A stretch of 53,669 bases of DNA, from NCBI GenBank assembly GCA_032718475.1, contig JAUCBJ010007683.1, positions 1-53,669 on the forward strand, written 5' to 3'. The notes under the pieces are model-generated. The model worked only from the letters and a program-made list of their open reading frames with translations, was not told the origin of the DNA and made no database searches. This DNA comes from Nemertoderma westbladi. Taxonomy: Eukaryota; Animalia; Xenacoelomorpha. The position numbers and the translations under genes were made by a program. Positions within the stretch are counted from its first letter, which is position 1. Each line of letters starts with the position of its first letter. Shown one piece after another: positions 20,357-50,371 of the stretch.

Positions 20357-20414
20357 TGTACAGAATTTCAACTCATTTAAATTAACCGCTACAAATTAAT
20401 TGCATTTGTCTGTA

Positions 20415-22045: not shown

Positions 22046-22056
22046 GTAGGAATATG
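22046..22056 (+). other. Non-tRNA primer-binding site GTAGGAATATG
   Basis: Immediately follows the 5' LTR, lacks TGG, and is the exact reverse complement of LTR 21010-21020 CATATTCCTAC. Confidence 0.7.
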
Positions 22057-25800: not shown

Positions 25801-28800
25801 ACGACTCCACCATCGACTTCGTCGGGAGTGGAGGAAGGTCGAATACCAGCGAGAAGAGCGGGGAGGATTCTTAAAATTAGAAGATGTGTACCTTTTAATA
25901 TCCAGGGAGGCAGTAGTAGAAACTAGATCTAACTACACCGACCAGCACATCGTGGCAGAAGGGATCACATTGCCATCCTCCAACCGACAAAAACCCCAGA
26001 CAACATCCACTAAGACGGCCACTTACACCACACCGACGGAATCACGACAATTCTCGGACGGTAGTAGGGTATCTGCGCCCATTGGGACAAAACAGACGAG
26101 ACAACAACTCGGTACCGACTTCAGCGGCTGCCAATACTGCGAGCATCTAGGCAAGCGGTATATCGGTCACAAGTTACGAGGTTGTCGACAATTTCGCGAG
26201 TTGAACTCGGAAGAACGAAGGCTGCAAATACGGCCACTGGACTCTTGTTGGCGGTGTACGCGACACGGACACGTCCGTAAAGATTGCCCAAATACCGACA
26301 CTTGTCCATCCTGTGGACGCAACCACGACGGTCTGCTCCACACAGACAGCCACACGCCGACAAAACGCTTCGCCAGGGAACACCCGGAAGCAGCAGCGAG
26401 ATGTGATGCGGCCTACCGAAAACGAGAATCTAAAACGACTCCAACCTTCGTGACCCATATTGAGGATTGCTTCTCAGAACAATCCGGATCGTCGGACGAA
26501 GAGTTAGAAGACGACGACGAATATTCCAATGGAGACGAACAACCGTCGATCGCGCTTCTGACTACTGACCAACTGAAGGGATTCAGTGTAATTCCGATTA
26601 AGGTTACTGGCACAAAAGGGAGCAAAAGAAACTACGCGATTCTAGATTCAGCCTCATCTCATAGCTACGTGGATGAAAAGATAGCTGACGTAGTGACGGA
26701 TCTTAAACAAGGTAAGCACGTCAGTTATACCGTAAGTAGTATGCACGGACAGCGTGCAATACCAGTGACACGAGTTAAGTTGGACTTAGACTCTCTTCTT
26801 CCGAAATCGCAACACAGCGAGAGGGAGAGGTCTTTGTTGCCCTTTAAAGATCTAACCTTTGCGGCTACGAAGGACTTTAGTAACCTACTAGGTCCAGTGC
26901 CGGAACAATCTCTAGAGGACCGTAAGTATTTCAGACACCTTGGTGTACCCGAATGTCCTGTCAATTATAGATCGGTAGCAATGCTGATCGGGACGGACCA
27001 ATTCAACCTACATCAGGTGTGGGAAACCAGACCATCGGCAGTCGTAGCGGGAAACGCATACGCCTGCAGAACGCCGATAGGGTGGTATACTCGAGCGCCT
27101 GTGCGCACACTAGACGTAAGTGACGAGGAAGACGATGTACAGAGTACATGTAGTTTATTAACTACAAATTCAATTCATTCCTTTTCACACGACGTGAACC
27201 ATACTACACTACAGTCGACAAAACATGACAGACGTGTAACTAGTATGATAAGTCACAAGGAGCAGCTAATCCACAAGGTGAGTTTAGAACTTGGGGAGAA
27301 GACGAGTCAGCTAGAGACTCCATCGACGACAGATGATAGGCTTGCGAGTCTACCTACCCCAACAACTTCAACAATACCCGTCGACATCGATGATGACGCG
27401 TTGAGAAATCATCAAATGGAACAAGCCGCTTTGGACAAAGAATTAACGGAGAAGACTATCAGGTGGTTAGAACAAGATACAGCTGAACCTGGTAGCTACG
27501 AACCTTGTATGTCGGAACAGGAGAAACAATCTCTGAAGATCATGGAAGATACTATCCACCAGACGAAGGACGGACATTATGAGGTAGGGATGTTATGGTG
27601 TAGCCAAAGTCCTAAACTTATAAACAACTACCCACTGGCTTTAAGACGTCTACACTCAATACGGCAACGTCTATTAAAGGACGAGAAGGCCCATCTGCAG
27701 TACAACACTCAGATGGAGACGTATTTGACAAAGGGATACGCTATCCGAATGACTAACCCGGAGATAGTGACTGACCAAACATATTACTTGCCACATCACT
27801 ATGTGAGACACCCCGACAAACCAGATAAAGTACGCGTAGTCAACGACTGTGCGGCTCTGTTTGAGGGAATGTCCCTCAATAGTGAGTTGATGGATGGACC
27901 AAACATGAATAATTATCTTATGGGGGTGATTATGCGCTTCCGTCAGCGTCAAGTAGCCTTTACTTGCGACATTGAAGCGATGTTTCACCAAGTGAAAGCG
28001 TTAGAGCGAGACAGAGACAGTTTGCGGTTCCTCTGGTATCCGGAAGGAGATTTAAGTCTACCACCGGCGACTTACCAAATGCAAGTTCGCGTTTTCGGTG
28101 CCAGAGACAGCCCAAATTGCACGATGTACGCCCTAAAGCAGGCCGCTAGAGATCAGAAACACCTATATGACCCAGAGATAATTAAAATCGTAGAACGTGA
28201 CTTTTACGTCGATGACGGTTTACAGAGTTGCGACACAGTAGAACGTGCTACAACAGTAGCACATCAATTACGGGACTGCTTAGCGAGCGGAGGTTTTAAC
28301 CTCACCAAATTCGCCTCAAACAGTGCCGAATTAGTAGACTCATTCGGGACGACTGAGCGTGGAGGTGGTGACATAGACCTAGAGTTCGAACCACTACCGA
28401 CGACTAAGGTGTTGGGGCTCTTTTGGGACCCAAACACAGACAACTTTCGAGTGAAAGTGAGACTGGACAGTCAAGAGAACACACTGACAAAGAGATCATG
28501 CTTGTCAAAGTTGAGCCGATTGTTCGATCCGTTAGGATTCATCAGTCCAGTGATACTGCAAGCCCGCATTTATATGCGCAGTATATGGAAGGATGGACTA
28601 ACATGGGACGAGCCGATCTCATCAGACCAAGTGGACTTATGGAAGACCTGGGAGGCGGAATTATCTTCGCTAGAGGATTATTCCATACCCAGGGTTTACT
28701 TTCCATTACAAAGTACATTTCCTGACAACTTGGAACTACACTGTTTTTCTGACGCCAGTGACAACGGTTTTGGTGTGGCAGCGTACTTGCGCAGACAAGT

Positions 28801-31585: not shown

Positions 31586-32245
31586 TTAGGAGTTTACAAA
31601 TAGATTTCCACGTACCTGTACACCGTAGTAAGGACAGCGGTAGAATTCCATTGTCTTTATATGTGAACATTGAGGGTAGTACCCTTATGTGTCACATAGG
31701 AGCGGGATTTGTAGGTATAAGAAATGGAATTCTACTTGGAACTCACAATATTGAGACATTTTCAAAATTTTAGACAATCCATTTGGATTTGAAAAATTTT
31801 TAAAATTTTCTCCAGTGAATAGATTTCAGGGTACAGTCGGGTGGAACTTAAAATTAGAGAAACAAGAGAGGAAGACGTGCGAGCCTTTCTTAAAAATTTT
31901 TAATTAAATTTTACACGGTCTTGTTTCAATAAGTTACGTCAAAATAGACTCCCCTATATTTATTACTAATTCTTGATTGCTTATTTTCTGATAATAGTTT
32001 GGGATCAAAAAGTGAGTATTTTAGACTCACAGCCAGTTTAGCCCAAATTCGTTTTTACTTCGGCAAAAAATTTTAGATAAGAAGCAGCGTGTCATTAAAG
32101 AAACCCTAGATCTTAGGCTATGGGTAGGAGGTTAGAGCGTTGTCGAGCCCAAAGGGCAGACGAAACTCTCACGTCTCCTCACAACTAACTACAAACTCTG
32201 TTGTATTCCCTCTAGTAGTAATGATTATGTAACTACACCCTAATT

Positions 32246-34564
32246 ATGGAGAAAGGGATACAAGGAGAGCCGAGATGGGGATATGATATCCAAGAGGAGG
32301 CAGCAGCGCCATTCGAAAGATTTGGAGCCAAGGACTATACTATATTTGGTATAAAGGAATTATCGGAAAGTACAGCGAAACTCGCAAAGACTAAATATGA
32401 ATGACTCGAACGTATTAAAGAGAAGGCAAAACGCATTAAACGAAAGAATCGAAAGTTTGCGCCAAACCTTCAACGAACTTTACCCGTACGACGCTTTGTG
32501 TGATACGGGAGACATTAGCGAAGACCCCGATACTGAAATTAGTCGTTTGCATCATACCATGCAATACCTGAAGGCGCACGAACCTATGCCCGCGGTACGC
32601 GATGAATTCGATGGAATGCATCTTTACAGACGAACTCGAGGAGACGATAGAGAAACCAAGGAAGCATTTTCGGTTTATAAACTTTATTATCAATGCGGTT
32701 CTTGTATGCGCGAACAACGAAATGCGATTCCGATGCGTTTGAATAAGGAAAATCCCGAACCGATATTGGCAAGGTGTTCGAATCATCAACAACTACGCTA
32801 CCAGGAAGGAGGGTATCCTTTATCGAATCCATATCATTCGTTTGCTATGACCGGACCAAAGGCGGGAGAAACTGTCATTTACCCACCTAAGGTCGTTGAA
32901 CCCGATGTATTTGAACTTACGCTGGACGAGGCAAATCAGTCAACCCGCGAAAAGAAAGAAGCTCTTAGCCTATACAGAGCCTACAAGGCTTTCGAGAAAG
33001 GTGAGATGGAAGAATGGGGCGGAAGACTCGCGAGCCTACCTTACCATTGGACGTCACACGATCAAACTTCAGCTAAAGAGATGACACCGGAAGTTTTCGA
33101 GAGCATAAACTTTGCTCAAAACGTATCGTGGAGATTATGGATGAATCACGGCAGACGCGCGCGCCTATCGGTCACCTTGGTGATGATTTCGAAGTAACTA
33201 CTACGATCACTGACGATCCTTTAGAAGAACTTCTTGAGATAGAAAGGAACCTCCCGAAGAAATCTCAGACGGAGATTCGACAACTTGAAGCAACAGATGC
33301 TATAGTTTGTATACAACCTTCAGAAACCTACCAACCCATAGACCCAGATGATTACGATTATAGTATGGGAGGAAGCGCTCGACCGATTGGAGATCTTATA
33401 TACGAACGAGTGTGGTACCCTGCCAATACGATGTGTAGTAAATGTGGCGTCGCTGGACATCATATGACAAAGTGCAGTGGAAAGCACATTACTACGACTC
33501 AGCTAATCTGTGGATGGTGTGGGGATCAAGGGTCTCATACCTTTTATACTTGCTGGAGATTTATGGCTCAATGTACTTACTGCAATATAAAAGGACATCG
33601 AGCATCTGAATGCCAACTAAGAGACATACCTTATGAACACGAATCTGTAAAACTCGTGAGGAAATTATTTGATGAGTGGGAAGATTTAGCCGACGAACAT
33701 GTATCGGCACAAAGAAGACGGTTTCCGATGAGGGCGCATCTTGGATTTTGGGCGGTAAATCCTCAAACGATGATGTCGGAAGGATATATCTCCGCTATGC
33801 CCCAATATGACGAACTTATCGAGGTAGTCGATATTTTGCCCCACGACAGCGGATTCCGAGTGGTGCGCGAGTATCTACTACAGATTCACCCGGATAACAA
33901 AAACACGTGGAATTTTCAGAAAGTCGTTAATCGGATTACGTATGGTGAATTCGATCGTTTCCGAACTGAAAAGCGGAACAAAGGAGCTTGGTTAACCGTC
34001 GCATGGGCGTACCGAGCCGCGTTTTACCATAAACGTATACGAGCGAGCGTATTCGAGGAAGAGGAGGTCCTAGAGGCGACAAATATACCAGCCACTCCGG
34101 TTGCGCCGTCTGCACGTCACCCTCGGGAGGACGGACAGGGTAGGATCATACGGGTCCAGAAAGTGGGCCAACAATTAAAGAAAATTATTAATGTAGAAGA
34201 ACGCAAGGGAGTTGAGCCGACCATTCGAGTTACTCGGGATACGGTATCACTTCCAAGAGAACCAGTAGGAGGATCGGGACATACACCAGCTGATCAACAG
34301 GGGGCGCAAGCTACTCTTGGGTCTGCGTTGTCCACTTCTCGCGCGTTCCCAGACGTTCTACCAACTGTAGTGACAACTAATCGGTCACGAGGAATCGGTC
34401 GAGGTTTTGGGATGCCAAATAGACGAATTTGCGAGGAAGTAGTCGCACCGTCTCTCAACGTCCCAAGTAAACCAGTGACTCGCCCCATTAGTCCCATATC
34501 GCGAGCAAAGTCACCTGTGCGCAGTTTTCGAGGACGCGGCAGGGCTCGATCTACTAAGCGATAA
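32246..34564 (+). pseudogene. Accessory ORF2 of copy 1, disrupted (4-bp ATGA duplication at ~32397; 1411-bp deletion at 33120-33124 removes the exonuclease domain)
   Basis: Colinear with 44829-48552 except for the segment between the two AACGT repeats (45699 and 47110); keeps the three CCHC knuckles and the RG-rich tail. Confidence 0.9.
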
Positions 34565-35368
34565 AAGGGAGGGCAAGGGTGGACGGAAGACTCGTGAGCA
34601 TTTCTTGTGAATTTGTGATTTATTTTGAATTATATGTTTTATATTTAGAAAGTTTTGTATTCTGGAAAAGACTTATATTTTGTAAAACTTATATTTAGTA
34701 AGACTTATATTTGTAAGAATTTATATTTTATATTTGTGATTATTCCGAACTTATGCAATTTATATTATTCCGAACTTATGCAATTTATATTGTTCCGAAT
34801 ATTATGCAATTTATATCTTATAAGCAGTATTTGTATTTACAGTGAAACAGAAAGTAAGAGTAGATGGAAGACTCGTGGGCCTTTCTTATAGTTTTATTTG
34901 TAAAGTGTTATATTTTGTATTCAGAAAGTTTTATAGTCAGAAATTTGTGCTCAGAAAGACTCACATTTGTAATTATTCCAAACTTATGCAATCTACATTT
35001 AGGTACGAAAGTATTTGTAATTACTTGAATTTATGCAATATTTGAGATGCAATAGTAGATGGAAGACTCGCGAGCCTTTCTTATTGTTTTCATTTATTTG
35101 TATTTGTAATTGTTTGAATTTATGCAATATTTGTGATGCAATAGATTTATATTGGTGAATTTAATTTAGATTTATATTGTACTTACTTAGTAAAGCCTTA
35201 AATACGTAAAGTTTGAATTTGTAATTATTTTGTATCGAATCATTACGTAAAAAGGAAGTATTGTTTGAAATTTAATTGTAAATATGTAAGTACGCCCTAA
35301 GTATTCTATAGTTTGATTGATTATTGGTGAAAACCGTATATTTTATGCACGATAATATCCTGTTTTCA

Positions 35369-35376
35369 TGGAGCGG
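35369..35376 (+). other. Short PPT-like tract (TGGAGCGG) abutting the 3' LTR
   Basis: Identical in copy 2 (49382-49389); sits at the PPT position. Confidence 0.55.
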
Positions 35377-37277
35377 TATAGAATTATATTCCCTAAATGC
35401 CGTGGATTTTCAAAATTTATTTTTATTCGAATTAACTTTGTAAAGATTGCTTTGAGTTCTCATTCGTATTGGTTCTATCATTTGTACATCTATCGGTCAA
35501 GTGGTTCAGTAGCTCAGTCGGTAGAGCGTTGGAAATTATATCTGTAGTAGGTATTGAGTTCGAATCCTAGTAAGTGCGAATTCTTTTTTGTACAGAATTT
35601 CAACTCATTTAAATTAACCGCTACAAATTAATTGCATTTGTCTGTACCAATGAGACTGTAGTTATTTGATTGTAACCAATGTCGTGCAAGTTATATATTA
35701 GCTGGACCAATAGCTATCTTTAAAACCCCGTTAGAACCCATAGAACAATCGAGAATTTTCTCGATTGATTGCGGCACAAATTTGGTATATAAAGGTGCGA
35801 TTTCGTTCATTAGTTCACCTACTTCAATCTCAATTGCTGATCTACCTTAACTTTCTGTCTTATTTCAGATTACATTGTTTATTGTATAATAGTTATTATA
35901 TCTTTTGTAATAAAAGTCAGAAATACTAGTCACATCTCAGCCCTTTTCTATCTGTTTTATCATGGATTCACTACGGTGAACAAACTCAGGGACAGGATGG
36001 CCGGCTAGAGATCGGGCCGCAGCAATGAACGGGAACATCGGGGGAATGTAGACGAGAGACAACCCGCAATACCATCTAGAGTTATTCGCCCATCGCCTGA
36101 AAGGTTAGACAGCGTTCGATCCTTGCTACCTAAGTGTAAGACCAAAAGATCAAAAAGGTAGACGTAGTGACACGCTGTAAGCCTAAAATTACATCAAAGG
36201 GACTGTACTGTCTTGATTCAGGAAAAACCGCAGTAGACCTTCATATTCCTACGGGGGGGAGAGCGCAGGCAGATACTAGTACGCAGATAGGACGTAGGCA
36301 CACCGGTACGAAGCATACACATTGGTTAGGGTGCAGCAAACTGTACGCTTAACTCTTGCTAAGTACAGGTGCGTCTGTGACTATTTGCCGTACAACGGTG
36401 TCCATTGCATTAGAACTTGTAGGCTAGGGGGGTTGCTGTGTTTTCACCTGAATTAGGATTGTACCGTTCAGGCGGTAGGGCAGTTTACGTACTAGGCGCA
36501 AATAAATTGAGGCTATTAGGGATACTAACATCTACCGTGTCCCCGCCAACGCCCTAATAGGAAGTTACCCGGACTACCTGGGTGACTAAAATTCTAGATA
36601 GGAGCCAGGATAGCTATTAGTACCCGTACGCCTACAGTAGTAAACTAACACATCTCTTCTTAGTATCAGGGACCTGGTACCTAAAATTGCCGAATTCTGG
36701 GCGTAGTATTAACCTTATGCCTGAATTTGAGTCCTGGAAATACGCAAGAGGGGAAGGAACCTTATCATTCGTGAGTATTGGACCTACAAGTTACAAAATT
36801 AGAATATTCGTAAAATGCACACCGTACCCAGTAATTATATATGTGAAGGAGCAAAACTGCTTTTGACCGTTCAGAATTAACACACGCGCGTTAGAAATTA
36901 TTTACACCTCAAAATATATAAAATTAACTTTCGTCCTTACTGCACTTTGCTCGCTAGTTAGACATCTCCAAATATCTGCCTCTGTACCTAGCTAGCGTCC
37001 CTTTGCCCAACCATATAAATCACACCGCGGCAAAGTATACGAGCCTCTTAGTCCGTCAGTGAGTCAGCCTGATTTTAGGATTCGCTGCGCGGGATTTTGT
37101 TTTATCGAAGTTTGTCTGCTCGTAGACTGTTTTCTGCCTCACCGGTTATAAGAGATCGATACTGCAATATATTCGCTTACTTAGAGTTTACTGTTTTGGT
37201 GAGAAGGTCGGATTTATGATTTGATTCACAAACTTTACAGTAGGATATTGCAGGTATTGTTGCTGTCTCTTCAATTA
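35377..37277 (+). repeat. 3' LTR of copy 1
   Basis: Direct repeat of 20145-22045. Confidence 0.95.
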
Positions 37278-38090
37278 CTTGACACAATGAACCCGGCGCA
37301 GCATTATTGTGAAAGTGCCATCCAGAGATTTGGTGTCCTCAGCTGTTAGAGCCCAGCAATGCCAGGATGGACTCCCATATAGAGTACTGGTACTACTTCT
37401 GCCATAAATACTCGAACCAGAGGTTCCGTTTTATTCTATGGGACTTCCAAATCCTGGACAGACTATTTAACGCTGCCCATGCCTTCCCCTTACGTATCCG
37501 AAGGTCTTCACCTGACTTTCTGATCCATGATCCCAAGTAGCAGAAGTCATCCACGTGCTCAAGAAAGCCATCCGTAGAGCTTATGCCCTTACGATTAGAC
37601 ATTTCTTGAGGGCTGTCTAGGTTGACTGTCATGATTTTGGTCTTCTTGGAATTTGCAAAAAGACCAACACTAGAAGCAACCTGCTTCGATGAGCAGAGGA
37701 GCCGTTGGGTTCCCTCTAGTGATTCTGACAGTACCCTTAAGTCATCAGCAAAGTCTAGATCAGTTAGGTACTTTGCTGGATTTCCTCTACTTATTGTGCC
37801 AGTAGCGGGTGTTACCATCACCCCATCTTTATTAAGATGGTCTAAGGACATGCGTAGAACATAATCAACAACCATTACGAATAAGAATGTTGCAAGTGTG
37901 TTACCCTGAATGACTCCCCATAAGACTTCGAATGGATCTGTGTTACAAACAGCAGTAGACACAAATGTGATGGAACCATCGAACAGTGATCTGATAGCTG
38001 CAATAATTTCCTCTGGAATCCCATATGCTGCCGGTATGCTGAAAATACGTGGTCGTATAATAGCCAGTTGTCTGTCTTTCTTTCGGAAAC
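37278..38090 (-). pseudogene. RTE LINE RT fragment, right flank (continuation of 19753-20144)
   Basis: GVIQGNTLATFLFVMVVDYVLR, YLTDLDFADD and FCYLGSWI. Confidence 0.9.
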
Positions 38091-38314
38091 TTTTTAAATA
38101 ATGTTGAATCGACACATTTAAATCGCTCTTTTTAAACAATAATACTTTTTTTTCCCAAATCAAATCTTTTTTAATCCATATTGGTTTTACAGTAGATAAA
38201 TATAAAACTAATTTACATTACCACTGGCTATACCTCTGCAGCAACAAAATTTCACCCCATATGCCTGTAATTTCGCCCCCTATATATTTACTGGGGGGGG
38301 GGGGGGGATTTAAT

Positions 38315-38401
38315 ATTACTATTACTATTACTATTACTATTACTATTACTATTACTATTACTATTACTATTACTATTACTATTACTATTACTATTACTAT
38401 T
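38315..38401 (+). repeat. (ATTACT)n microsatellite at the 5' breakpoint of copy 2
   Basis: ~14 perfect units. Confidence 0.95.
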
Positions 38402-41400
38402 AACCGCTCCGATGTCCCGATTCGAGTTCTACACTCTACAGGTGAGAGTACAAAGCAGAGTACATAAGTCCGTAGATAATCTAATTGGTCTACAAGATCT
38501 AGCTAGACAGAGACAGGATATGGACACACAGTTTAAAATCCTCGAGAAATTAATGATCGCTAGAGAGAAACTGATTCAGTTTAAGACGACGATTAGACAT
38601 AGGCAAACGTATCAGTTATCCCACAAAAGCTTTTACAGAGTCGGTTTCCGACGAGTTATTACAGCCTGAGGAAGAACAGGAACTGTACCGACTGGATGGA
38701 CAATTGAAACATCTGACGGATCACTTACATATGTGCGGCGAAGATGTCGGCGATTTGGAAACCGTGCCGGAATATACGAGGGGAACTTCACCCGTACAAA
38801 TCGAATCCGCACCGGGAATACTGGACCAATCGTTAGTGAGTATTCGCAGCGAAATTGGCGAGGTAAGTATAGTGACGTCAGAAATTTCTAGACAGCAACA
38901 ACAGTACCACAGACAACAACGAGAAATGGAAGAACAAACTCAATTGTTAACTGTACAAGCAGCTGTAGAGGAAGAGAAGCTACGCGTTGCAAATATTGCG
39001 AGAATCTCTCATCTGCAAGAACAAGCCGAGTTGGAAGCGGCTGAGATGGAAAGGTTGGAGCTAGAAATAGCACAAAGAACAGCAGCAGCGGAGTTAGCGC
39101 AACGAGCGGCAGCAGCCGAGTTGGAACGACAAGCGGCAGCGGCTGAGTTGGAACGACAAGCGGCAGCGGCTGAGTTGGAACGACAAGCGGCAGCAGCGGA
39201 GTTAGATGAACAAAGGCAAGTTTCGGAAGCCCGAGCCGAGTTGAAAAAACGACAAATAAAGGCTCAATCAGCTATACGACAAGCGGAGTTCGAGGCGCAA
39301 CAACAACAGACGGAACAACGTGAGAAGGAAGTTAAACTTCATTTCGAACTCGAAAGGAAGGCGAGAGAACTAGCCGAAGCCAAAGAAAATCTGGATCTTC
39401 TAGCCCGCGATCGATAGATGAGATCTCGTGACGGACATGATTTGGACCAGATAGAGGTAAGGCACCGCCAAATTCAGGAACGAATGAAGGAAGGAAGTGT
39501 AGGGGCACCTGGGCGAGAAAGACAATTAGTTAAAGACTTATGTCAAAGATTCCCTCAAGTAACTCCTATGTTTGCACCAGTTACGACTAAGGAACCTGTT
39601 TCGATTGCGGGTAGTAGTAATATTTCTCCTATCCATGGTGCGACGGAACACAGGTTTGTTATTCCGGACAAGTTCATACCGCCAAGAGCAACGTCGTCGC
39701 CTATTCTGAAAGTCAAGGTAAGTAACCCACCGATTACCGATCGTAGTAGTTTATTGACCGGACCTGCACTACTAACGACAAAACAGGTGAGTCCACCTTC
39801 GACACCAAAACCCGTTACGCAATACACATGTGTACACAATGTGCACACACACAATACACCCAATGACGTTTAGGCCTACAAGGCCTTTAGATTCAAACGC
39901 AGTCACTCGACCACCGTTTAATCAGTTTACGTCGCAATCTACGACTTCGAGGAAGACCTGCGAGCCTACCGAACAACGGAGACCAGTGGATACACGACCG
40001 TTTAATCAGTTTACATCGCAATCTACGACTTCGAGGAAGACCTGCGAGCCTACCGAACAACGGAGACCAGTGGATACGCGACCGTTTAACCAGTTTACAT
40101 CGCAATCTACGACTTCGAGGAAGACCTGCGAGCCTACCGAACAACGGAGACCAGTAGACGATGTTCCGAAGCGAAACGTTAGAATTCGGACGACGCAACG
40201 GACATGAGCACATCGACCACCGTATCCAGGCGACAGTAGTACTTCAAGCGAGTCGGATTACCCGGAACGCGAGGTATTTAGAACAGGAGCGGCCGACAAA
40301 TGTAAACGTGAGCGTTCAGATAATTCATTTATCGATAATCCTCCACAAAATACACCAATACAAAAGGCATTACAACCAACAGACGCAATCAGTACACAAC
40401 AATTCGCCGACATTCTGCGACCAGTTGTCAACAAGTTGGCCCAGATCGAGGAACGTTTAGAGGAAGTTCAAACCGATAGTTCGAAAAACACCGAATTCGA
40501 ACACTCTAGACACCCGAACATTCAGCAAAGACCAATACCATCGACAAACACATCGTATCAAAGAAAAGCGCCAAGAAGGGAGAACATCAACCAGGTTGCC
40601 AACCAAGGACGCGAAACTTTGAACGTTGCCGAAGAAATAGCGAAATTCGCAGCTAGACAAGGACTACCGGTGCAACAACCACCTAAGTTTTACGGTAACT
40701 CTAAACATTGGCACACTTTTGTAGACTACATTGAATCTCAGATTGCTGTGTGTGCTTTTACATCGAGAGAAAAATTCAACTACCTGTTACAAACGCTGAC
40801 GGGAGAACCGAAACGTCTAGCGGAGACTTTTGTCGGTGTACCAGATGCCTTCGAATTAGCGTACGATCGCTTAACATCGATTTACGGAGGCACCGTAAGT
40901 ATGGCTAAGTCAGTGATAGAAGAACTCTGTAAGGGGGGGGGCTATTACAAAACCCGTTGACTTACTGAAATTGGCTGACGAGATTAAAAACGCCATTACT
41001 ACACTACGCTCAATTGGACAACTTGACTACGCGAACACTCCTACAGTCCTATTGAAAATAATAGGAAGATTGCACCATCGACTTCGTCGGGAGTGGCGAA
41101 AAATCGAATATCAGCAAGAAGAACGAGGTGGATTCTTGAAGTTGGAAGATGTCTACTTATTGATATCCAGAGAGGCAGTAGTGGAGACTCGTTCAAACTA
41201 CACGGACCAACACATCGTAGCCGAAGGAATCACCCTACCTTCATCAAACAGACAGAAACCACCAACGACATCCACAAAGACGGTCACCTACGCTACACCG
41301 ACCGAAACCCGACAATTTTCAGACGGTAGTAAAGTGTCTGCACCTATAGGGACCAAACAGACCAGACAACAACTAACTGCCGACTTCAGCGGTTGCCAAT

Positions 41401-44290
41401 ATTGCGAACGGATTGGTAAGCGACATACTAGCCACAACTTAAAGGGATGTCGACTATTCTGTGAATTAAACTCAGAGGAACGACGGCTTCAAATAAGACC
41501 GTTAGATTCTTGTTGGCAGTGTACACAACATGGACATGTCCGTAAGGACTGCCCAAATACGGACACCTGTCCTTACTGTGGACGCAACCATGACGGTCTG
41601 CTCCACACGGACAGTCATACGCCGACCAAACGCTTCATAAGGGAACACCCGGAAGCTGCAGCAAAATGCAATAGTGCATATAAAACACGCGAATCGAGAA
41701 CAACACCAACATTCGTGACGCATATTAGGGATTGCTTCTCAGAACAATCCGGATCATCAGATGAAGAGTCGGAAGACGACGACGTTTATTTCGGTACTGG
41801 GGACGAACAACCATCGATTGCACTTCTGACGCCTGATCAACAAAAGGGGTTTAGTGTAATTCCTATTAAGATTACTGGCACAAAAGGGAGTAAAAGGATC
41901 TACGCTATCCTGAATTCAGCCTCATCTCACAGCTACGTGGATGAGAAGGTAGCTGATGTCGTCACAGATCTCAGACAAGGTAAGCACGTAAAGTACACTG
42001 TAAGTAGTATGCATGGACAACGTGCAATACCAGTAACACGAGTTAAGTTAAACTTGGACACTCTTCTTCCGAAATCGCAACATAGCGAAAAGGAGAGGTC
42101 TTTGTTACCCTTTAGGGATTTGACTTTTGCGGCCACCAAGGACTTTAGTAACCTACTGGGTCCAGTGCAGGAACAATCCCTAGAGGACCGTAAGTATTTC
42201 AGACACCTTGGTGTACCTGAATGTCCTGTCAACTATAGGTCGGTAGCAATGCTGATCGGGACGGACCAATTCAATCTACATCAAGTGTGGGAAACCAGAC
42301 CATCGGTAGTCGTAGCGGGAAACGCTTACGCCTGTAGAACTCCGATAGGGTGGTATACTCGAGCGCCTGTGCGCACACTGGATATAAGTGATGAGGAAGA
42401 CGATGTACAAAGTACATGTAGTTTACTAACTACAACTTCGATTCATTCCTTTTCACCTGACATAGACTATACTACACTACGTTCGACAAAACACGACAAC
42501 GTTACAAGTACGACGTGTGTAGCAAATACGATAAGTCACAAAGAGCAGCCAATCCACAAGGTTAGTATAGAGCGTGAGAAGAAGACGAGTCAGGCAGAGG
42601 TTCCATCGACGACAGATGATAACGCCGGAAGGCTTGCGAGTCTATCTACACCAATAACTTTAACGATGCCCGTCGATATCGATGTCGACACATTAAAGAA
42701 TTGTCAAGTGGAACAAGCTGAACTAGACAAAGAGTTAACAGAGAAAACTATCAGATGGTTAGAACAAGATACAGCAGAACCTGGTAGTTATGAACCGTGT
42801 ATGTCGGAACAAGAGAAACAATCTTTGAAGATCATGGAAGATACTATCCGCCAGACGAAAGACGGACATTATGAGGTAGGGATGCTATGGCGTAGCCAAA
42901 GCCCTAAACTTATCAATAATTATCCGCTAGCCTTAAGACGTCTACACTCAATACGACAACGTTTATTAAAGGACGAGAAAGCCCATCTGCAGTATAATAC
43001 TCAGATGGAGACGTATTTGACAAAGGGGTACGCTATCAGGATGACAAACCCAGAGATTGTGACCGACCAGACATACTACTTGCCACATCACTACGTGAGA
43101 CACCCCGACAAACCTGATAAAGTACGCGTAGTTAACAACTGCGCGGCCCTTTTTGAAGGAAGGTCTCTCAACAGTGAGTTGATGGACGGACCAAACATGA
43201 ATAATTATCTCATGGGGGTGATTATGCGCTTCCGTCAGCGCCAAGTAGCATTTACTTGTGACGTAGAAGCGATGTTTCACCAAGTGCGAGCGTTAGAGCG
43301 AGACAGAGACAGTTTGAGGTTCCTCTGGTACCCGGATGGAGACTTAAGTCAACCACCGGCGACTTACCAAATGCAAGTTCGCGTTTTCGGTGCCAGGGAC
43401 AGCCCAAACTGCACTATGTACGCCCTAAACAGACCGCTAGGGATCAGAAACATATGTATGACCCAGAGGTAATCCAGATCGTAGAACGAGACTTTTATGT
43501 AGACGATGGATTACAAAGTTGTGACACAGTAGAACGTGCTATAACAGTAGCACATCAATTACGGGACTGTTTAGCAGGCGGAGGTTTTAACCTCACTAAG
43601 TTTGCCTCAAACAGCACTGAATTGGTAAATTCATTCGAAACGACTGAACGTGGGGGTGGGGACATTGACTTAGAGTTCGAACCACTGCCGACGACCAAGG
43701 TGTTGGGACTATTTTGGGACCCGAACACAGACAACTTTCGAGTGAAAGTAAAACTGGACGCTGAAGGAGATTCTCTGACAAAGAGGTCTTGCTTGTCGAA
43801 ACTAAGCAGACTGTTCGACCCCTTAGGTTTCATCAGCCCAATAATACTGCAAGCACGAATATATATGCGCAGTATTTGGAAAGATGGACTGACATGGGAC
43901 GAACCGATCTCATCCGAACAAGTGGACTTATGGAAGGCTTGGGAGGCGCAATTATCTTCGCTAGAGGATTATTCCATACCCCGGGTGTACTTTCCATTAC
44001 AGACGACATTTCCTGACAACTTAGAATTACATTGTTTTTCCGACGCCAGTGACAATGGCTTTGGTGTGACAGCGTATTTGCGCAGACAAGTAGACTCAGA
44101 TGAGTTTGATGTTTCGCTCATTACTTCTAAGGCTAAAACAATGCCTACTAAGTATATGACGACACCACGCGCTGAGCTACAAGCCGCAACGCTGTCAACG
44201 ACCATTGTAAACCTCATACAGATGGAACTACAGTCAAGTTTACAGATATTTTATTGGACTGACGCGACGTTAGTTTTAGTAGATTTGTAG
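38401..44290 (+). pseudogene. Degenerate gag-pol of copy 2
   Basis: ORF fragments starting at 38412, 38704, 39418, 39830, 40436, 40971 and 43454 match copy-1 Gag-Pol; the protease catalytic D is changed to N. Confidence 0.93.
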
Positions 44291-44828
44291 GTATAAGAAA
44301 TGGAATTCTACTTGGAACTCACAATATTGAGACATTTTCGAAATTTTAGACAATCCATTTGGATTTGAAAAATTTTTAAAATTTTCTCCAGTGAATAGAT
44401 TTCAGGGTACAGTCGGGTGGAACTTAAAATTAGAGAAACAAGAAAGGAAGACTCGCGAGCCTTTCTTAAATTTTAATTAAATTTTACACGGTCTTGTTTC
44501 AATAAGTTACGTCGAATAATAGACTTCCCTATATTTATTACTAACTCTTGATTGCTTATTTTCTGATAATAGTTTGGGATCAAAAAGTGAGTATTTTAGA
44601 CTCACAGCCAGTTTAGCCCAAATTCGTTTTTATTTCGGCAAAAAAAAAAAAATTTTAGATAAGAAGCAGCGTGTCATTAAAGAAACCCTAGATCTTAGGC
44701 TATGGGTAGGAGGTTAGAGCGTTGTCGAGCCAAAAAGGCAGACGAAAACTCTCACATCTCCTCACAACTAACAATAAACTCTGTTGTATTCCCTCTAGTA
44801 GTATGATTATGTAACCATACCTCTAATA

Positions 44829-47800
44829 ATGGCGAAGGGGATACAAGGAGAGCCGAGATGGGGATATGATATCCAAGAGGAAGCAGCAGCGCCATTCGAA
44901 CGATTTGGAGCTAAGGATTACACTATATTTGGAATTAAGGATTTATCAGAAAGTACAGCGAAACTCGCAAAGACCAAATATGACTCGAATGTATTAAAGA
45001 GAAGGCAAAATGCGTTAAATGAAAGAATCGAAAGTTTACGTAAAACCTTCAATGAACTTTACCCGTACGACGCTTTATGTGATACGGGAGATATTAGCGA
45101 AGATCCCGATACCGAAATTAGTCGTTTGTATCTTACTATGCAATACCTAAAGGCACATGAACCTATGCCCGCGGTACGCGATGAATTCGATGGAATGCAT
45201 CTTTACAGACGAACTCGAGGGGACGATAGAGAAACAAAGGAAGCATTTTCAGTTTATAAACTTTATTATCAATGCGGAGCTTGTATGCGCGAACAACGAA
45301 ATGCGATTCCGATGCGTTTGAATAAGGAAAATCCCGAACCGATATTGGCGAGGTGTTCGAACCATCAACAACTACGCTACCAGGAAGGAGGGTATCCTTT
45401 ATCGAATCCATATCATTCATTCGCTATGACTGGACCGAAGGCGGGAGAAATTGTCGTTTACCCACCTAAGGTTGTTGAACCCGATGTATTCGAACTTACG
45501 CTGGACGAGGCGACTCAGTCAACCCGCGAAAAGAAAGAAGCTCTTAGCCTATACAGAGCCTACAAGGCTTTCGAGAAAGGCGAGATGGAAGAATGGGGCG
45601 GAAGACTCGCGAGCCTACCTTACCATTGGACGTCACACGATCAAACTTCAGCTAAGGAGATGACACCGGAAGTTTTCGAGAGTATAAACTTTGCTCAAAA
45701 CGTTATTCAGAGACTACAGATTGCATCCCCGGAAAGGACAAGAGAAATGCAACCGTATAGTACTTCAACTACGAAACCATTGAGTACGACACTCAATTTC
45801 CCTATTAGTATACCAGTTCGACAAGATACAACGTATGAAATACCTATTGTGGATCATCCGGAAATCATTTCGAACTTAGAGTTTCTTCCTGCAGTTGTTC
45901 TAAGCGATATGGTTAAGATATATGATTTACGTAGACATATTACGCAAAAGGTCGTGCATAATGTTCCGCCTAATATTCAAGACTTTAGGGAACTGGATAG
46001 AGCTGGCGCTGATATAGCTCCAAGTAACCTGAAAGGATATTTAACCAAAACAATTCGCTTATGGATTGGAACAGGAACCTTTGAGTCGGATACAGATATC
46101 GCTGCGGACTGGCAAGGTAAAGTCATTCGTTTCGAGGACGAGAAAGACATAGAGAAGATTTGGCAACCTTCGGAAGAATTATTGGACGAATGGAATAGGA
46201 CGTTTAGATCGTTTCAGGAAAACGGTTACATGTTTTATGATAACGAGGGCGGCAGCCATCAGCAGAGTCTAACCTCCAAGACTATACAAATTAGAGCGGC
46301 AGACGGAGTTTTGCACGTTTTCAGTAGACAAAGGAGCGACAAGCGAATGCCGATACCTCCAGGAACTACAAAGCGGCACCATTTCATCACTAATATAGTA
46401 AAGAAAATGGACCAGGCTTGCAATATCGATGCTAGAATGTTACCAAAGACGGTGAGAAATATGATTTTAGATAAAACTGTTGTAAAGATTGGATCAGGAG
46501 TAAGAGAGGACTTAATTAGCGACTTCGCCGGCATGTCGGACAGTGACGACCGATTACCGACACCTTACGTCGACACTCGACCTCTTATACTGTGGTCTAT
46601 AGAACAAGGATACTTCCGTGAGTATGATACTCAGAAAACCGGAACTGGATATATTTCCTACTTGATGTTTAATTGGGATTACAAGGAAAGTAAAAGAACA
46701 AAGTATATCGAAACGTATGGAGAAGGTGATACTCCAGATATAAATGAGTTTGAATCACAGCTCAAATGGAGAGGATGCGTATATTGGGCTATTACTTCAC
46801 CTCCAAGAGCGGTACTACAATATTATTTAGCGATAGAGTCATCAGTGAATGTTTGCTTAGTCGCCGACATTGTGTCTCGGACTCTTAAAAGACATCCACT
46901 TTGCCTCGGAGAAGATCATACATTCTACGCGGAAGGGAGAATTCATACTGATGTGTTTAGACGGTTTCTCGAACCCTTCTACAATTCCGACGCTCAGTGT
47001 AATGCCTTCACTCGAGCAGGATTTAGTATATTTCGAGACGTGTATCTTCGCTGTGCGGGATCTCTTATCGAAAGACCATCTATGTTTACATTGTTACCCT
47101 ATGAAGGAGAACGTATCGTGGAGCTTACGGACGAATCACGGCAGACGCGTGCGCCTATCGGTCACTTAGGTGATGATTTCGAAGTAACGACGGCCATCGA
47201 TGATCCTTTAGAGGAACTTCTTGAGATTGAAAGGAACCTCCCGAAGAAATCTCAGACGGAGATTCGACAATTAGAAGCAACAGATGCTGTAGTTTGCATA
47301 CAACCTTCTGAAACATACCAACCTATTGATCCAGACGATTATGACTATAGTGTGGGAGGAAGCGCTCGACCCATTGGCAATCTTATATATGAGCGAGTGT
47401 GGTACCCTGCTAATACGATGTGTGGTAAATGTGGCGTCGCTGGACATCATTCGACAAAGTGCAGTGGAAAGCACATTACTACGACTCAACTGATTTGTGG
47501 GTGGTGTGGAGATCAAGGGTCCCATACATTTTATACTTGCTGGAGATTTATGGCTCAATGCACCTACTGCAATATAAAGGGACATCGAGCATCTGAATGC
47601 CAACTGAGAGACATACCTTACGAACACGAATCTGTAAAACTCGTGCGAAAACTATTTGATGAGTGGGAAGATTTGGCTGACGAACATGTAGCAGCGCAAA
47701 GAAGACGGTTCCCGATGAGAGCGCATCTTGGATTTTGGGCGGTAAATCCTCAAACTATGATGTCGGAAGGATATATCTCTGCTATGCCGCAATATGACGA

Positions 47801-48029
47801 ACTCATCGAGGTAGTTGATATTTTGCCTCACGATAGCGGATTCCGAGTTGTGCGCGAATATTTGTTACAGATACACCCTGACAATAAGAATACATGGAAC
47901 TTCCAGAAAGTCGTTAATCGTATCACCTATGGTGAATTTGACCGTTTCCGAACGGAAAAGCGGAACAAGGGAGCTTGGTTAACCGTCGCATGGGCGTACC
48001 GAGCCGCGTTCTACCATAAACGTATATGA
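44829..48029 (+). CDS. Accessory ORF2: DEDDy 3'-5' exonuclease (WRN/Mut-7/RNase D-like) plus 3 CCHC zinc knuckles; ancestral end at 48552 (~1240 aa)
   Basis: ExoI YMFYDNEG, TIQI, ExoII LPKTVRNMILDKTVVKIGSGVRED, YVDT, ExoIII W....P....QYYLAIE; knuckles CGKCGVAGHHSTKC, CGWCGDQGSHTFYTC and CTYCNIKGHRASEC; TGA at 48027 is CGA in copy 1. Confidence 0.8.
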   Translation: MAKGIQGEPRWGYDIQEEAAAPFERFGAKDYTIFGIKDLSESTAKLAKTKYDSNVLKRRQNALNERIESLRKTFNELYPYDALCDTGDISEDPDTEISRLYLTMQYLKAHEPMPAVRDEFDGMHLYRRTRGDDRETKEAFSVYKLYYQCGACMREQRNAIPMRLNKENPEPILARCSNHQQLRYQEGGYPLSNPYHSFAMTGPKAGEIVVYPPKVVEPDVFELTLDEATQSTREKKEALSLYRAYKAFEKGEMEEWGGRLASLPYHWTSHDQTSAKEMTPEVFESINFAQNVIQRLQIASPERTREMQPYSTSTTKPLSTTLNFPISIPVRQDTTYEIPIVDHPEIISNLEFLPAVVLSDMVKIYDLRRHITQKVVHNVPPNIQDFRELDRAGADIAPSNLKGYLTKTIRLWIGTGTFESDTDIAADWQGKVIRFEDEKDIEKIWQPSEELLDEWNRTFRSFQENGYMFYDNEGGSHQQSLTSKTIQIRAADGVLHVFSRQRSDKRMPIPPGTTKRHHFITNIVKKMDQACNIDARMLPKTVRNMILDKTVVKIGSGVREDLISDFAGMSDSDDRLPTPYVDTRPLILWSIEQGYFREYDTQKTGTGYISYLMFNWDYKESKRTKYIETYGEGDTPDINEFESQLKWRGCVYWAITSPPRAVLQYYLAIESSVNVCLVADIVSRTLKRHPLCLGEDHTFYAEGRIHTDVFRRFLEPFYNSDAQCNAFTRAGFSIFRDVYLRCAGSLIERPSMFTLLPYEGERIVELTDESRQTRAPIGHLGDDFEVTTAIDDPLEELLEIERNLPKKSQTEIRQLEATDAVVCIQPSETYQPIDPDDYDYSVGGSARPIGNLIYERVWYPANTMCGKCGVAGHHSTKCSGKHITTTQLICGWCGDQGSHTFYTCWRFMAQCTYCNIKGHRASECQLRDIPYEHESVKLVRKLFDEWEDLADEHVAAQRRRFPMRAHLGFWAVNPQTMMSEGYISAMPQYDELIEVVDILPHDSGFRVVREYLLQIHPDNKNTWNFQKVVNRITYGEFDRFRTEKRNKGAWLTVAWAYRAAFYHKRI

Positions 48030-49389
48030 GCGAGCGTATTCGAGGAAGAGGAGGTCCTAGAGGCGACCAACATACCAGCTACTCCGGTCGCGCCGTCTGC
48101 ACGTCACCCTCGGGAGGACGGACAGCACAGGATCATAAGGGTTCAGAAAGTGGGCCAACAGTTAAAGAAAACTATCAACGTTGAAGAACGAAGGGGATAC
48201 GAACCGACTATTCGAATTACTCGGGATACGGTTTCGCTTCCCAGAGAACCGCAAGGGGGATCGGGACATATACCAGCTGATCAAAAAGGGGGCGCAAGCT
48301 TCTCTTGGGTCTGCGTCGTCCGCTTCTCGCGCGTTCCCAGACGTTTTACCAGCGGTAGATACAACAGATCGGTCAAGAGGGATTGGACGAGGATTTGGGA
48401 TAACTAAGAGACGAATATGTGAGGAAATGGTCGTACCATCTCCCAACGTCCAAAGTAAACCAGTGGCTCGCCCCACAAGTCCCATATCACGAGCTAAATC
48501 GCCGATACGCAGTTTTCGAGGACGCGGCAGGGCTCAATCCGCTAAGCGTTAAAGTGGGAAGGAAGGAGTGGACGGAAGACTCGTGAGCCTTTCTTATGAA
48601 TTGTTTGTTTTATGCATTGTTTAGGTAAATCAAATTGTTTATGTAATTTGTATTGTTTAAAATTTATATTGCTCTAAATTTATGCAATTTATATTATTCT
48701 AAATTTATGCAATTTATATTATTCTAAATCTATGCAATTTACATTGTTCTAAATTTATGTATTTGTATTGTTCCGGATTTATGAAATTTAGAAAGTTTAT
48801 ATTTAGAAGGAACTTATATTTGAAAGATTTATATTTCATATTTGAGATGCAAGGAGTTTATATTATTCTAAACGTATGCAGTATTATTCTAAACTTATGC
48901 AATTTAGTAAAGATTTATATTTAGAAAGTGCTATATTTGTAGTCATTCCAAACTTACGCAATTTATTGTTTCGAATATTATGCAATTTATATTTTATAAA
49001 GAAGCAGTATTTGTATTTACAGTAAATAGAAGGCAAGAGCAGACGGAAGACTTGTGAGCCTTTCTTGTGATTTATTCCGAACTTATGCAATTTGTTTTAT
49101 ATTTAAGTAGTATTAGTATTTGTGATTGTTTGAATTCATGCAATATTTGAGATGCAATAGATTTATTTTAGTGAATTTAATTTAGATTTATATTGTGCTT
49201 ACTTAATAAAGCCTTAAATACGTAAAGTTTGAATTTGTAATTATTTGTATCGAATTATTATGTAAAGGTATTATTGTTGAGATCTAATTTGTAAATATGT
49301 AAGTACGTCCCAAGTATTCTATAGTTTGATTTAGTATTGGTGAAAACCGTATATTTTATGCACGATAATATCCTGTTTTCATGGAGCGG

Positions 49390-50371
49390 TATAGAATTAT
49401 ATTCTCTAAATGCCGTGGATTTTCAAAATTTTATTTTATTCGGATTAACTTTGTTATAAAGATTACATTAAGTCCTCATTTGTATTTACTATATCTATTT
49501 GTACGATGATTATTCAAGTGGTTCAGTAGCTCAGTCGGTAAAGCGTTGGAAATTATATGTAGTAGGTATTGAGTTCGAATCCTTGTAGGTGCGAATTATT
49601 TTTTGTGCAGAATTTCAACTCATTTAAATTAACCGCTACAAATTAAATTGCATTTGCCTGTACCTAGATTAACCAATGGGACTGTAGTTATTAGACAGTA
49701 ACCAATGTCGTGCAAGTTATATATTCGCTGGACCAATAGTTATCTTTAAAAACCTATTAGAACTCATAGAACAATCGAGAATTTTCTCGATTGATTGCAG
49801 CACAAATTTGCTATATAAGGTGCGATTTCGTTCATTAGTTATTCATTCTAATTAGTTTATAGTATACAATCATTCGTGCTTTAGATTATCTTTATTAGTT
49901 ATCTATTAGTTTCTTGTTACGTTTATGTATATCTTTTGTAATAAAAGTTAGAAATACTTGTTACATCTGCCCTTTTCTATCATGTTTTACTACGGTGAAC
50001 TTAACTGAGGGACAAGATGGCAGGCTAAACATCGGGCCACAGCAGTGAACAGGAACATCTGAGGAATGTAGACAGGAGACAACCCGCAATAACATTCTTG
50101 AGTTATTCGCCCATCGCCTGAAAGGTTAGACAGCGTTCAATGCCTTGCTACCTAAGTATAAGACCAAAGATCGAAGGTAGAGGTAGTGACACGCTGTGCG
50201 CTAAAAATTACATCTAGGGACCGTACTGTCTACTGTCTTAATTCAGAGAAAACCCGCGGTAGACCTTCATATTCCTACGGGGGAGAGGAGAGCAGGCAGA
50301 GATACTAGTACACAGATAGGACGTAGGCACACCGGTACAAGGCATACACATTGGTAGGGTGCAGCAAACTG
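49390..50371 (+). repeat. Partial, diverged 3' LTR of copy 2
   Basis: Begins TATAGAATTATATT after GGAGCGG; homology ends at GCAGCAAACTG. Confidence 0.9.

What the first reader, a model, noticed from the sequence alone, without database searches (positions are those of the whole stretch)
44829..48552. Env-position accessory gene encodes a DEDDy 3'-5' exonuclease fused to zinc knuckles
Seen: a ~1240-aa ORF between pol and the 3' LTR with no evident signal peptide or transmembrane segment, so it is not an envelope. The central part (~46190-46880) has the ordered motifs of the WRN/EXD2/Mut-7/RNase D family: YMFY-D-N-E-G (D at 46239, E at 46245), IQI, LP..V...ILD..VVKIGSGVRE-D, YVDT, and W...P...QY-Y-LAI-E (last acidic residue E rather than D). 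It is followed by three CCHC knuckles and an RG/RS-rich basic tail, with a possible N-terminal CxxC...CxxH. Shared parts of the two copies differ largely at synonymous sites, suggesting purifying selection. Known: this family trims 3' ends of tRNAs and small RNAs (RNase D, Nibbler/Mut-7). I recall exonuclease domains in a few nematode BEL elements, so the degree of novelty needs checking. Inference: the protein could mature the self-encoded primer's 3' end, proofread RT products, or antagonise piRNA silencing. Together with the non-tRNA PBS, this is the candidate new system.
Basis: partly seen in the sequence, partly recalled or inferred. Interest (0 to 1): 0.88.

Follow-up and report, generated by a model that had tools for sequence, protein, structure and literature searches.

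The report
Retrotransposon exonuclease fused to zinc knuckles
A BEL/Pao jumping gene carries, where an envelope gene would sit, a strongly conserved extra gene predicted to encode a 3'-to-5' nuclease joined to three RNA-binding zinc knuckles, which likely trims the element's own RNA, possibly the primer it appears to make for itself instead of using a tRNA.

Summary
Largely confirmed. The gene lies between pol and the 3' LTR of a BEL/Pao retrotransposon. It is open for only 1066 codons: a stop at 48027 and a frameshift near 48283 break the 1240-codon span. It has no sequence relative among 1.84 billion representatives and Pfam misses it. Even so, ordered EXD2/WRN-type motif blocks score z about 7 (0 of 500 shuffles), the ESM Atlas gives DNA_pol_A_exo1 at 0.92, and a family-guided model matches DEDDy folds (partly circular). 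The catalytic set is D471, E473, D561, Y666, E670 (D in all 16 references). Selection is purifying: dN/dS 0.03-0.06 in the flanks, and 32 of 40 listed variants in the nuclease domain are silent. DEDDy third ORFs are already described in bdelloid LTR elements, and nuclease plus CCHC knuckles in trypanosome TbRND. I found no report for BEL/Pao. The primer-trimming link is untested; the young copy with intact gag-pol has lost the domain. New: a 20-nt motif repeated 18 times along the element RNA. Verdict: new variant of a known kind.

The parts
44829..48552 (+). ORF2 of copy 2 (env position); open 44829-48029 (1066 aa), premature stop 48027-48029, one-base frameshift near 48283; span equals 1240 codons
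46170..46910 (+). DEDDy/EXD2-WRN-like 3'-5' exonuclease domain (residues 448-694); ExoI D471 (46239) and E473 (46245), ExoII D561 (46509), ExoIII Y666 (46824) and E670 (46836, D in references)
47421..47600 (+). three tandem CCHC zinc knuckles (C-x2-C-x4-H-x4-C twice, C-x2-C-x5-H-x4-C once)
   Evidence: Pfam zf-CCHC only below cut-off, E 0.0066
45273..45365 (+). possible N-terminal zinc site CxxC-x23-CxxH in a region of no recognised family
   Evidence: Atlas found no usable hit for residues 1-420
44768..44798 (+). predicted branch point (CTAAC), pyrimidine tract and splice acceptor upstream of ORF2, kept in both copies (copy 1: 32185-32215)
   Evidence: read from sequence, (the script's strict acceptor filter did not list it); not shown by RNA
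32247..34564 (+). ORF2 remnant of copy 1: 4-nt insertion at 32397, 1.4-kb deletion at ~33124 (AACGT microhomology) removing the whole nuclease domain; knuckles and basic RG/RS tail in frame at 33137-34564
22850..31585 (+). intact 2911-aa gag-pol of copy 1 (DUF1759, knuckle, protease, RT YVDD, Peptidase_A17/RNase H, integrase, DUF5641): BEL/Pao
20145..22045 (+). 5' LTR of copy 1, 1901 nt, ends TA...TA; TATA 20556, initiator-like TCATT at ~20577, UGUA+AATAAA at 20677, second AATAAA 21269
35377..37277 (+). 3' LTR of copy 1, 6 differences in 1901 nt from the 5' LTR; 5-bp target duplication CTTGA at 20140 and 37278 (single copy at the homologous empty site near 9591)
22046..22056 (+). primer-binding site, not tRNA-CCA type (starts GTAGG)
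21010..21020 (+). perfect 11-nt complement of the PBS inside the LTR; kept in the diverged LTR of copy 2 (50268-50278)
   Evidence: 0.0005 expected by chance
20579..20591 (+). second, bipartite (7+6 nt) complement of the PBS region at the predicted RNA 5' end; not kept in copy 2's LTR
38400..50371 (+). copy 2: 5'-truncated, gag-pol broken by stops/frameshifts, integrase region missing, partial 3' LTR 49390-50371
22938..49064 (+). dispersed 20-nt near-palindromic motif (core GGAAGACYYGYGAGCC): 18 sense-strand copies, 10 in copy 1 and 8 in copy 2, one inside ORF2 at 45600

Best explanation
The gene after pol is a conserved accessory gene of a BEL/Pao retrotransposon, predicted to encode an EXD2/WRN-type 3'-5' exonuclease joined to three zinc knuckles, and it likely works in trans as a knuckle-guided trimmer of the element's own RNA, with the self-made primer as the most likely substrate. 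Shown: position, motifs, purifying selection, a non-tRNA PBS with complements in the LTR. Strongly supported prediction (about 0.9): the DEDDy fold. Inferred: (1) translation from a spliced subgenomic mRNA (acceptor at 44798, candidate donor at 22022 upstream of the PBS); (2) catalysis with Glu in place of the last Asp (about 0.65); (3) knuckles hold the RNA and feed its 3' end to the active site, as in TbRND; (4) an LTR-derived RNA anneals to the PBS by 11 bp and its unpaired 3' remainder is chewed back to the duplex, leaving a paired 3'-OH at 21020 for RT (about 0.25). Copies that lose the domain would be served by intact copies elsewhere in the genome.
For: Motif chain z about 7, 0 of 500 shuffles; EXD2-like profile 7.3 bits, above all 1000 shuffles; Atlas 0.92 to a PF01612 cluster; weak dnaQ hit exactly at ExoI, E 0.058; model pLDDT 66.5 with best blocks 84-88 around ExoII, Z 10-12 to DEDDy structures. 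dN/dS 0.055 (CI 0.024-0.11) and 0.032 (0.015-0.059) in the flanks, as low as RT-RNase H at 0.073. In the nuclease domain 32 of 40 listed variants are silent (expected fraction 0.21-0.29) and none alters D471, E473, E560, D561, Y666 or E670. TbRND has the same nuclease-then-CCHC layout, and its fingers are needed for efficient RNA binding and trimming (PMC7797062, section 13). The conserved TATA/initiator and UGUA-AATAAA put the 11-nt PBS complement about 430 nt inside the transcript, so its 3' end has to be made by processing (inference).
Against: No activity or expression data. The last acidic ligand is E where all 16 references have D. No homolog was found, so co-occurrence with the self-PBS is untested. 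Copy 1, with 99.7% identical LTRs and an intact gag-pol, lacks the domain, and 7 of the 7 long ORF2 joints among the 15 listed in other copies also skip it (22 joints not shown, and any 2-3 kb deletion here would). In the predicted fold of the leader the PBS pairs with the RNA 5' end, not with 21010-21020 (pairing probability 0.00), which points to Tf1-like priming for copy 1. The single-sequence model failed (pLDDT 31) and the good model used a DEDDy alignment. RNase D and Pol I profiles gave no signal. The 40 variants are the best-supported of 108.
Confidence: 0.4

Rival explanations
1. ORF2 is a Rev/CERV- or Egalitarian-like RNA adaptor. Made from a spliced mRNA, it binds the repeated 20-nt motif along the unspliced genomic RNA through its knuckles and a weak or dead nuclease fold, and licenses export, transport or packaging.
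For: 18 sense-strand motif copies only inside the two elements versus 0.04 expected, in two reading frames and in non-coding parts. Splice signals flank the PBS and precede ORF2. Cer1 uses a spliced accessory protein, CERV, for genomic RNA export (PMC10309623, abstract). Egalitarian-RNA complexes are among the structural matches. ExoIII D-to-E could weaken catalysis. Basic RG/RS tail.
Against: Four of five catalytic residues are canonical and the fifth is conservative; none varies among the listed variants. Gag has its own knuckles that could read the motif. The motif shows no compensatory changes and no unusual stability.
Confidence: 0.25
2. ORF2 is a silencing suppressor that trims or destroys piRNAs/siRNAs aimed at the element, a public good that deleted copies can exploit.
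For: Nibbler/Mut-7 are in the same fold group. The domain is dispensable in cis. A silencing role was floated for bdelloid DEDDy ORF3s (PMC5408684).
Against: No small-RNA data. Strong purifying rather than diversifying selection. That mature piRNA 3' ends are methylated and resist trimming is recalled, not tested.
Confidence: 0.2
3. ORF2 acts on DNA: it proofreads RT products or trims cDNA ends before integration (the LTRs end TA...TA, not TG...CA).
For: WRN/EXD2 and Pol I proofreading domains are equally close in fold. Dada DNA transposases carry a DEDDy domain proposed to process 3' DNA ends (PMC3706591). Non-canonical LTR ends.
Against: It is a separate ORF, not fused to RT or integrase. 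Tandem CCHC knuckles suggest single-stranded RNA (by analogy with TbRND). Copy 1 has a clean 5-bp target duplication yet no nuclease domain.
Confidence: 0.1
4. The central region is not a DEDD fold; the motifs are a chance likeness amplified by a family-guided model.
For: No Pfam, PDB-sequence or protein-database hit. Single-sequence model failed. Motif blocks were chosen after seeing the protein, and over half of the chain score comes from the ExoII block.
Against: The Atlas result, the dnaQ hit at ExoI and the unedited EXD2-like profile do not depend on my block choice and point to the same family.
Confidence: 0.05

Closest known systems
DEDDy ORF3 of bdelloid Juno/Vesta LTR retrotransposons and Athena/Terminon elements (PMC5408684)
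   Same: Separate ORF downstream of pol, no envelope features, DEDDy nuclease with one acidic residue changed D to E; function unknown; 3'-end processing and silencing already proposed.
   Different: Here the host element is BEL/Pao; the change is at the last position (DEDE) whereas theirs is given as DEED; the nuclease is the middle of a 1240-codon protein with three CCHC knuckles; strong purifying selection is shown; the PBS is not tRNA-type.
Trypanosoma brucei RNase D (TbRND; PMC7797062; PDB 7C42/7C45)
   Same: DEDD nuclease followed by tandem CCHC fingers; structural match Z about 10.
   Different: Cellular enzyme with four fingers that trims guide-RNA U tails. Here three knuckles, a 170-residue linker, a large unknown N-terminal part and no detectable sequence relationship; likely convergent.
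EXD2 / WRN exonuclease / Nibbler (Mut-7), Pfam PF01612
   Same: Motif order and ExoII signature; top Foldseek matches.
   Different: Insertions of about 33 residues after strand 3 and about 20 before ExoIII; ExoIII Glu; below Pfam detection.
Belpaoviridae (ICTV profile PMC8742986)
   Same: Single gag-pol, PR-RT-RH-IN order, LTRs, Pao-specific Pfam domains.
   Different: The profile gives 4.2-10 kb genomes, 0.2-1.2 kb LTRs, an 18-nt tRNA-Arg/Gly PBS and an optional env-like gene. Copy 1 is 17.1 kb even with its deletion, with 1.9-kb LTRs, a self-complementary PBS and a nuclease gene.
Tf1/Tj1 self-priming (PMC4600332)
   Same: PBS complementary to the element's own LTR RNA.
   Different: There the primer is the 5' segment of the mRNA. 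Here the perfect, conserved complement lies about 430 nt after the predicted start, with a second bipartite match at the 5' end in one LTR type only.
CERV of C. elegans Cer1 (PMC10309623)
   Same: Accessory protein from a spliced mRNA with a cysteine-rich putative RNA-binding part.
   Different: Gypsy element; no nuclease domain described in the passages read; export function shown there, only a rival here.

Membership tests
DEDDy (DnaQ-like) exonucleases, PF01612 group | ExoI D-x-E on the first strand | tested here: met
   D471/E473 align with invariant columns; NCBIfam dnaQ E 0.058 over this stretch
DEDDy (DnaQ-like) exonucleases, PF01612 group | ExoII Asp after K-x-G | tested here: met
   K553, D561; block score 26.5 bits
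DEDDy (DnaQ-like) exonucleases, PF01612 group | ExoIII Y-x3-D | tested here: not met
   Y666-x3-E670: Tyr present, Glu instead of Asp (D in 16 of 16 references); so filed as DEDDy-like (DEDE variant), not a canonical member
DEDDy (DnaQ-like) exonucleases, PF01612 group | Score above the Pfam cut-off | tested here: not met
   No PF01612 row at E up to 10
DEDDy (DnaQ-like) exonucleases, PF01612 group | RNase H-like DnaQ fold | tested here: inconclusive
   Family-guided model matches but is partly circular; unaided model failed; Atlas features agree
DEDDy (DnaQ-like) exonucleases, PF01612 group | Acidic residues cluster and bind two metals; 3'-5' activity | not testable with these tools
   The fold tool returns no coordinates; needs assay
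BEL/Pao (Belpaoviridae) | Pao-type Pol, order PR-RT-RH-IN, flanked by LTRs | tested here: met
   Peptidase_A17 E 2e-42, DUF5641, DUF1759; motif order; LTRs and target duplication
BEL/Pao (Belpaoviridae) | 18-nt PBS for host tRNA-Arg/Gly | tested here: not met
   PBS starts GTAGG and matches the LTR for 11 nt; the host's tRNA set was not available to compare
Envelope gene | Transmembrane anchor / signal peptide | tested here: not met
   Maximum 19-residue hydropathy 1.39 in the open part and 0.79 in copy 1's C-terminal part; signal peptide judged by eye only
Bdelloid retroelement DEDDy ORF pool | Groups with Juno/Vesta/Athena DEDDy ORFs in a tree | not testable with these tools
   None of those proteins came up
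Tf1-type self-priming | Primer is the 5' end of the genomic RNA | tested here: inconclusive
   Bipartite 5'-end match in copy 1 is absent from copy 2's LTR; transcription start is only predicted

The most novel reading that the evidence does not exclude
A tRNA-independent BEL/Pao lineage that makes its primer from an internal LTR RNA and encodes its own primer-maturing enzyme: a knuckle-guided 3'-5' exonuclease, recruited by a 20-nt motif stamped about ten times along the element's RNA, that trims the annealed primer RNA back to the 11-bp PBS duplex. That would be a third route to priming besides host tRNA and Tf1-type cleavage, and a first assigned function for the DEDDy genes that several retroelement classes carry.
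Probability: 0.2. Interest if true: 0.87.

Novelty: new variant of a known kind. Interest (0 to 1): 0.6.

Why it matters
DEDDy nucleases have been captured by gypsy-like LTR elements, Penelope-like Terminons and Dada DNA transposons, and no function has been shown in the papers I read. This element adds BEL/Pao, shows that such a gene is under selection as strong as RT, and offers concrete substrates to test: a candidate self-primer with a defined 3' end and a repeated RNA motif. The nuclease-plus-knuckle stretch is unbroken in the window, so the open question of what these captured nucleases do becomes directly testable in vitro.

Tried and rejected
Homolog searches all blank: word-indexed (lengths 586-1866, lengths 179-573), full HMMER over 1.84 billion representatives (0 at E<=0.001), viral contigs, metagenome contigs with RT, plasmids and phages (none, and 2 chance hits at E 7-8), exact look-up (0 of 5), PDB sequences, earlier scan findings. 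No whole genome is held, so copy number and other subfamilies could not be read. One search (profile of alignment A3) returned 132 PF01612 proteins, driven by the bacterial rows; none is a relative of ORF2. The PDB list is likewise driven by those rows and is not support. Single-sequence AlphaFold failed. The first motif-chain run had the ExoII block set on the wrong columns and gave z=0; it was corrected. Alignments A4 and A5 mis-register ExoIII, so A3 was folded. Atlas search of residues 1-420: no usable hit. No RNA holder listed among runs; run X5 is only guessed to be RNA. Contig depth was not used as copy number. The repeated motif as a stable hairpin: not supported (folding z from -1.8 to +0.9; 0 compensatory pairs of 9). 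Rfam on the LTR/leader: two chance-level rows. ARAGORN: 0 tRNA genes. The wide structural search (pdb_via_wide) was not run.
Full report
Anatomy. The window holds two copies of one BEL/Pao family. Copy 1 (20145-37277) has 1901-nt LTRs that differ at 6 positions, a 5-bp target duplication CTTGA (single at the homologous empty site), TA...TA ends and an intact 2911-aa gag-pol with Peptidase_A17, DUF1759 and DUF5641. It sits in a fragment of a non-LTR element. Copy 2 (38400-50371) is 5'-truncated, with broken gag-pol and no integrase region. The finding is ORF2 of copy 2. It is open for 1066 codons, stops at 48027-48029 and has a one-base frameshift near 48283; the whole span equals 1240 codons. 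Copy 1 reads open through the knuckles and the basic tail but has a 4-nt insertion and a deletion of residues ~292-762, which takes out the entire nuclease domain.

Is it a DEDDy nuclease? Direct searches are blank: Pfam, PDB sequences, 5.8 billion proteins by word index and 1.84 billion representatives by full HMMER. Positive lines: (a) ESM Atlas features for residues 420-740 give three unnamed eukaryotic clusters at 0.93-0.94 and a DNA_pol_A_exo1 set at 0.92, 24 of 30 hits, with PF01612 on 50% of that cluster's members; shuffled proteins reach 0.9 in 4-10% of cases. (b) NCBIfam's only row for the domain is DNA polymerase III epsilon, E 0.058, starting at ExoI. (c) A profile of 11 bacterial EXD2/WRN-like proteins scores the domain 7.3 bits, above all 1000 shuffles and centred on ExoII; profiles of 7 RNase D-like and 13 Pol I domains give nothing. 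The blocks were chosen with the protein in view, and a first run with a mis-set block gave nothing. (e) Folding with 16 bacterial references gave pLDDT 66.5, pTM 0.62, top Foldseek matches EXD2 and WRN (E 2e-4 to 6e-3, TM 0.3-0.45), Z 10-12 at about 4 A over 150-175 residues, and giant-virus 3'-5' exonucleases in the viral library. This line is partly circular, and the unaided model failed. Together I put the fold at about 0.9. The catalytic set is D471, E473, D561, Y666 and E670; the last is D in all 16 references.

Selection. Between the copies dN/dS is 0.055 for the N-terminal part (288 codons), 0.032 for the knuckle part (300), 0.23 for the tail (172), against 0.07 for RT-RNase H. For the nuclease domain I used contigs of four public runs. 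Of 108 variant places the 40 best supported were listed; 32 are silent, 28 are third-position, and none changes a catalytic residue. The family is abundant and has diverged subfamilies (contigs at about 83-86% identity). Seven of the 15 listed joints are 2-3 kb deletions in ORF2 and all seven skip the nuclease. Geometry alone makes that likely, but with copy 1 it shows that nuclease-less copies are common.

Context. A branch point, pyrimidine tract and acceptor precede ORF2 in both copies. A candidate donor at 22022 and an acceptor at 22281 bracket the PBS (predicted only). The PBS is not CCA-complementary. It has a perfect 11-nt complement at 21010-21020 (0.0005 expected), kept in copy 2's LTR, and a bipartite complement at the predicted RNA 5' end, which the leader fold prefers but copy 2's LTR lacks. 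TATA, initiator and UGUA-AATAAA are conserved in both LTR types and suggest a short R and a 1.35-kb U5. A second AATAAA at 21269 leaves open a start near 21010, which would make priming plainly Tf1-like. Not noted in the finding: a 20-nt near-palindrome occurs 18 times on the sense strand, only within the two elements, in two reading frames and in non-coding DNA, versus 0.04 expected. Its G residues are invariant while C/T varies, but it shows no compensatory pairs, so it looks like a sequence read by a protein.

Mechanism. The best reading is a trans-acting, knuckle-guided 3'-5' trimmer of element RNA, by analogy with TbRND, whose fingers are needed for binding and efficient cutting (PMC7797062: abstract, passages and section 13 read). 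The self-primer is the most specific candidate substrate, but that step is inference (about 0.25). Rivals are an export/transport adaptor reading the motif (CERV, PMC10309623: abstract and passages), a silencing suppressor, and DNA-end processing (Dada, PMC3706591: passages).

What is known. Rodriguez et al. 2017 (PMC5408684; parts 1-3 of 5 read, covering the main text, plus passages) describe DEDDy ORF3s in bdelloid Juno/Vesta LTR elements and Athena elements, with DEDD changed to DEED, and propose the same range of functions. Reviews repeat this (PMC5718144, PMC6431247, PMC6338049: passages). The ICTV Belpaoviridae profile (PMC8742986: whole text) lists only gag, pol, env-like genes and tRNA priming. 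The word exonuclease is absent from the BEL/Pao survey PMC3118150 and the GyDB paper PMC3013669 (word finds in the main text; supplements not opened). Ten library searches listed no BEL/Pao exonuclease and no nuclease-knuckle fusion in a transposon; for most listed papers I saw only the listing. Self-priming background is from PMC4600332 (passages). The RNase H step in Tf1, the catalytic death of Egalitarian and piRNA methylation are recalled.

Verdict. Real, selected and unusual, but a variant of a published kind: new host superfamily, TbRND-like knuckle fusion, DEDE site, and a suggestive but unproven tie to self-priming. Interest 0.6.

Noticed in passing
window 22938-49064 (18 sites, e.g. 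22938, 24693, 29366, 31870, 34585, 35061, 44446, 45600, 48574, 49045): 20-nt near-palindromic motif repeated along the element on the sense strand, in coding (two frames) and non-coding parts; G invariant, C/T free; 0.04 expected by chance. Candidate protein-binding, packaging or dimerisation signal.
   Followed up: partly
window 20145 and 22045; 35377 and 37277: LTR termini are TA...TA rather than TG...CA, with a 5-bp target duplication confirmed by an empty homologous site near 9591.
   Followed up: yes
window 20270-20345 (also 35502-35577 and about 49519-49590): tRNA-like fragment with A-box and B-box in U3, followed by a T run; not called by ARAGORN or Rfam. Possible Pol III promoter or insulator.
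   Followed up: partly
window 20580-20665 versus 49840-49925: The predicted R region is almost unalignable between the two LTR types while TATA/initiator and poly(A) signal on either side are conserved.
   Followed up: partly
window 20700-21250: Long, heavily base-paired U5 segment in the predicted leader fold, containing the PBS complement followed by a G run.
   Followed up: partly
window 29000-30300 (gag-pol residues ~2090-2400): Long low-complexity Lys/Asp/Pro-rich insertion between RNase H and integrase, helping to make the polyprotein 2911 aa.
   Followed up: no
window 44803-44814: Tiny upstream ATG-ATT-ATG-TAA frame between the predicted acceptor and the ORF2 start, present in both copies.
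   Followed up: no
window 12841-14935: Host gene with BTB, BACK and TLDc domains in two long ORFs.
   Followed up: no
window 2091-2648, 9244-10315, 18267-18746, 19828-20144, 37278-38005: Fragments of non-LTR retrotransposons with RT motifs; copy 1 is inserted into one of them.
   Followed up: partly
window 5960-6595, 14942-15261, 38320-38400, 52255-52833, 52894-53669: Tandem repeats of 29, 40, 6, 21 and 41 nt; the 6-nt run marks the truncated 5' end of copy 2.
   Followed up: no
run X5 (organism B) on window 44536-49814: A second coded organism holds ORF2-like pieces at about 86-95% identity, including 148 nt of the nuclease domain; low depth, origin unclear.
   Followed up: no
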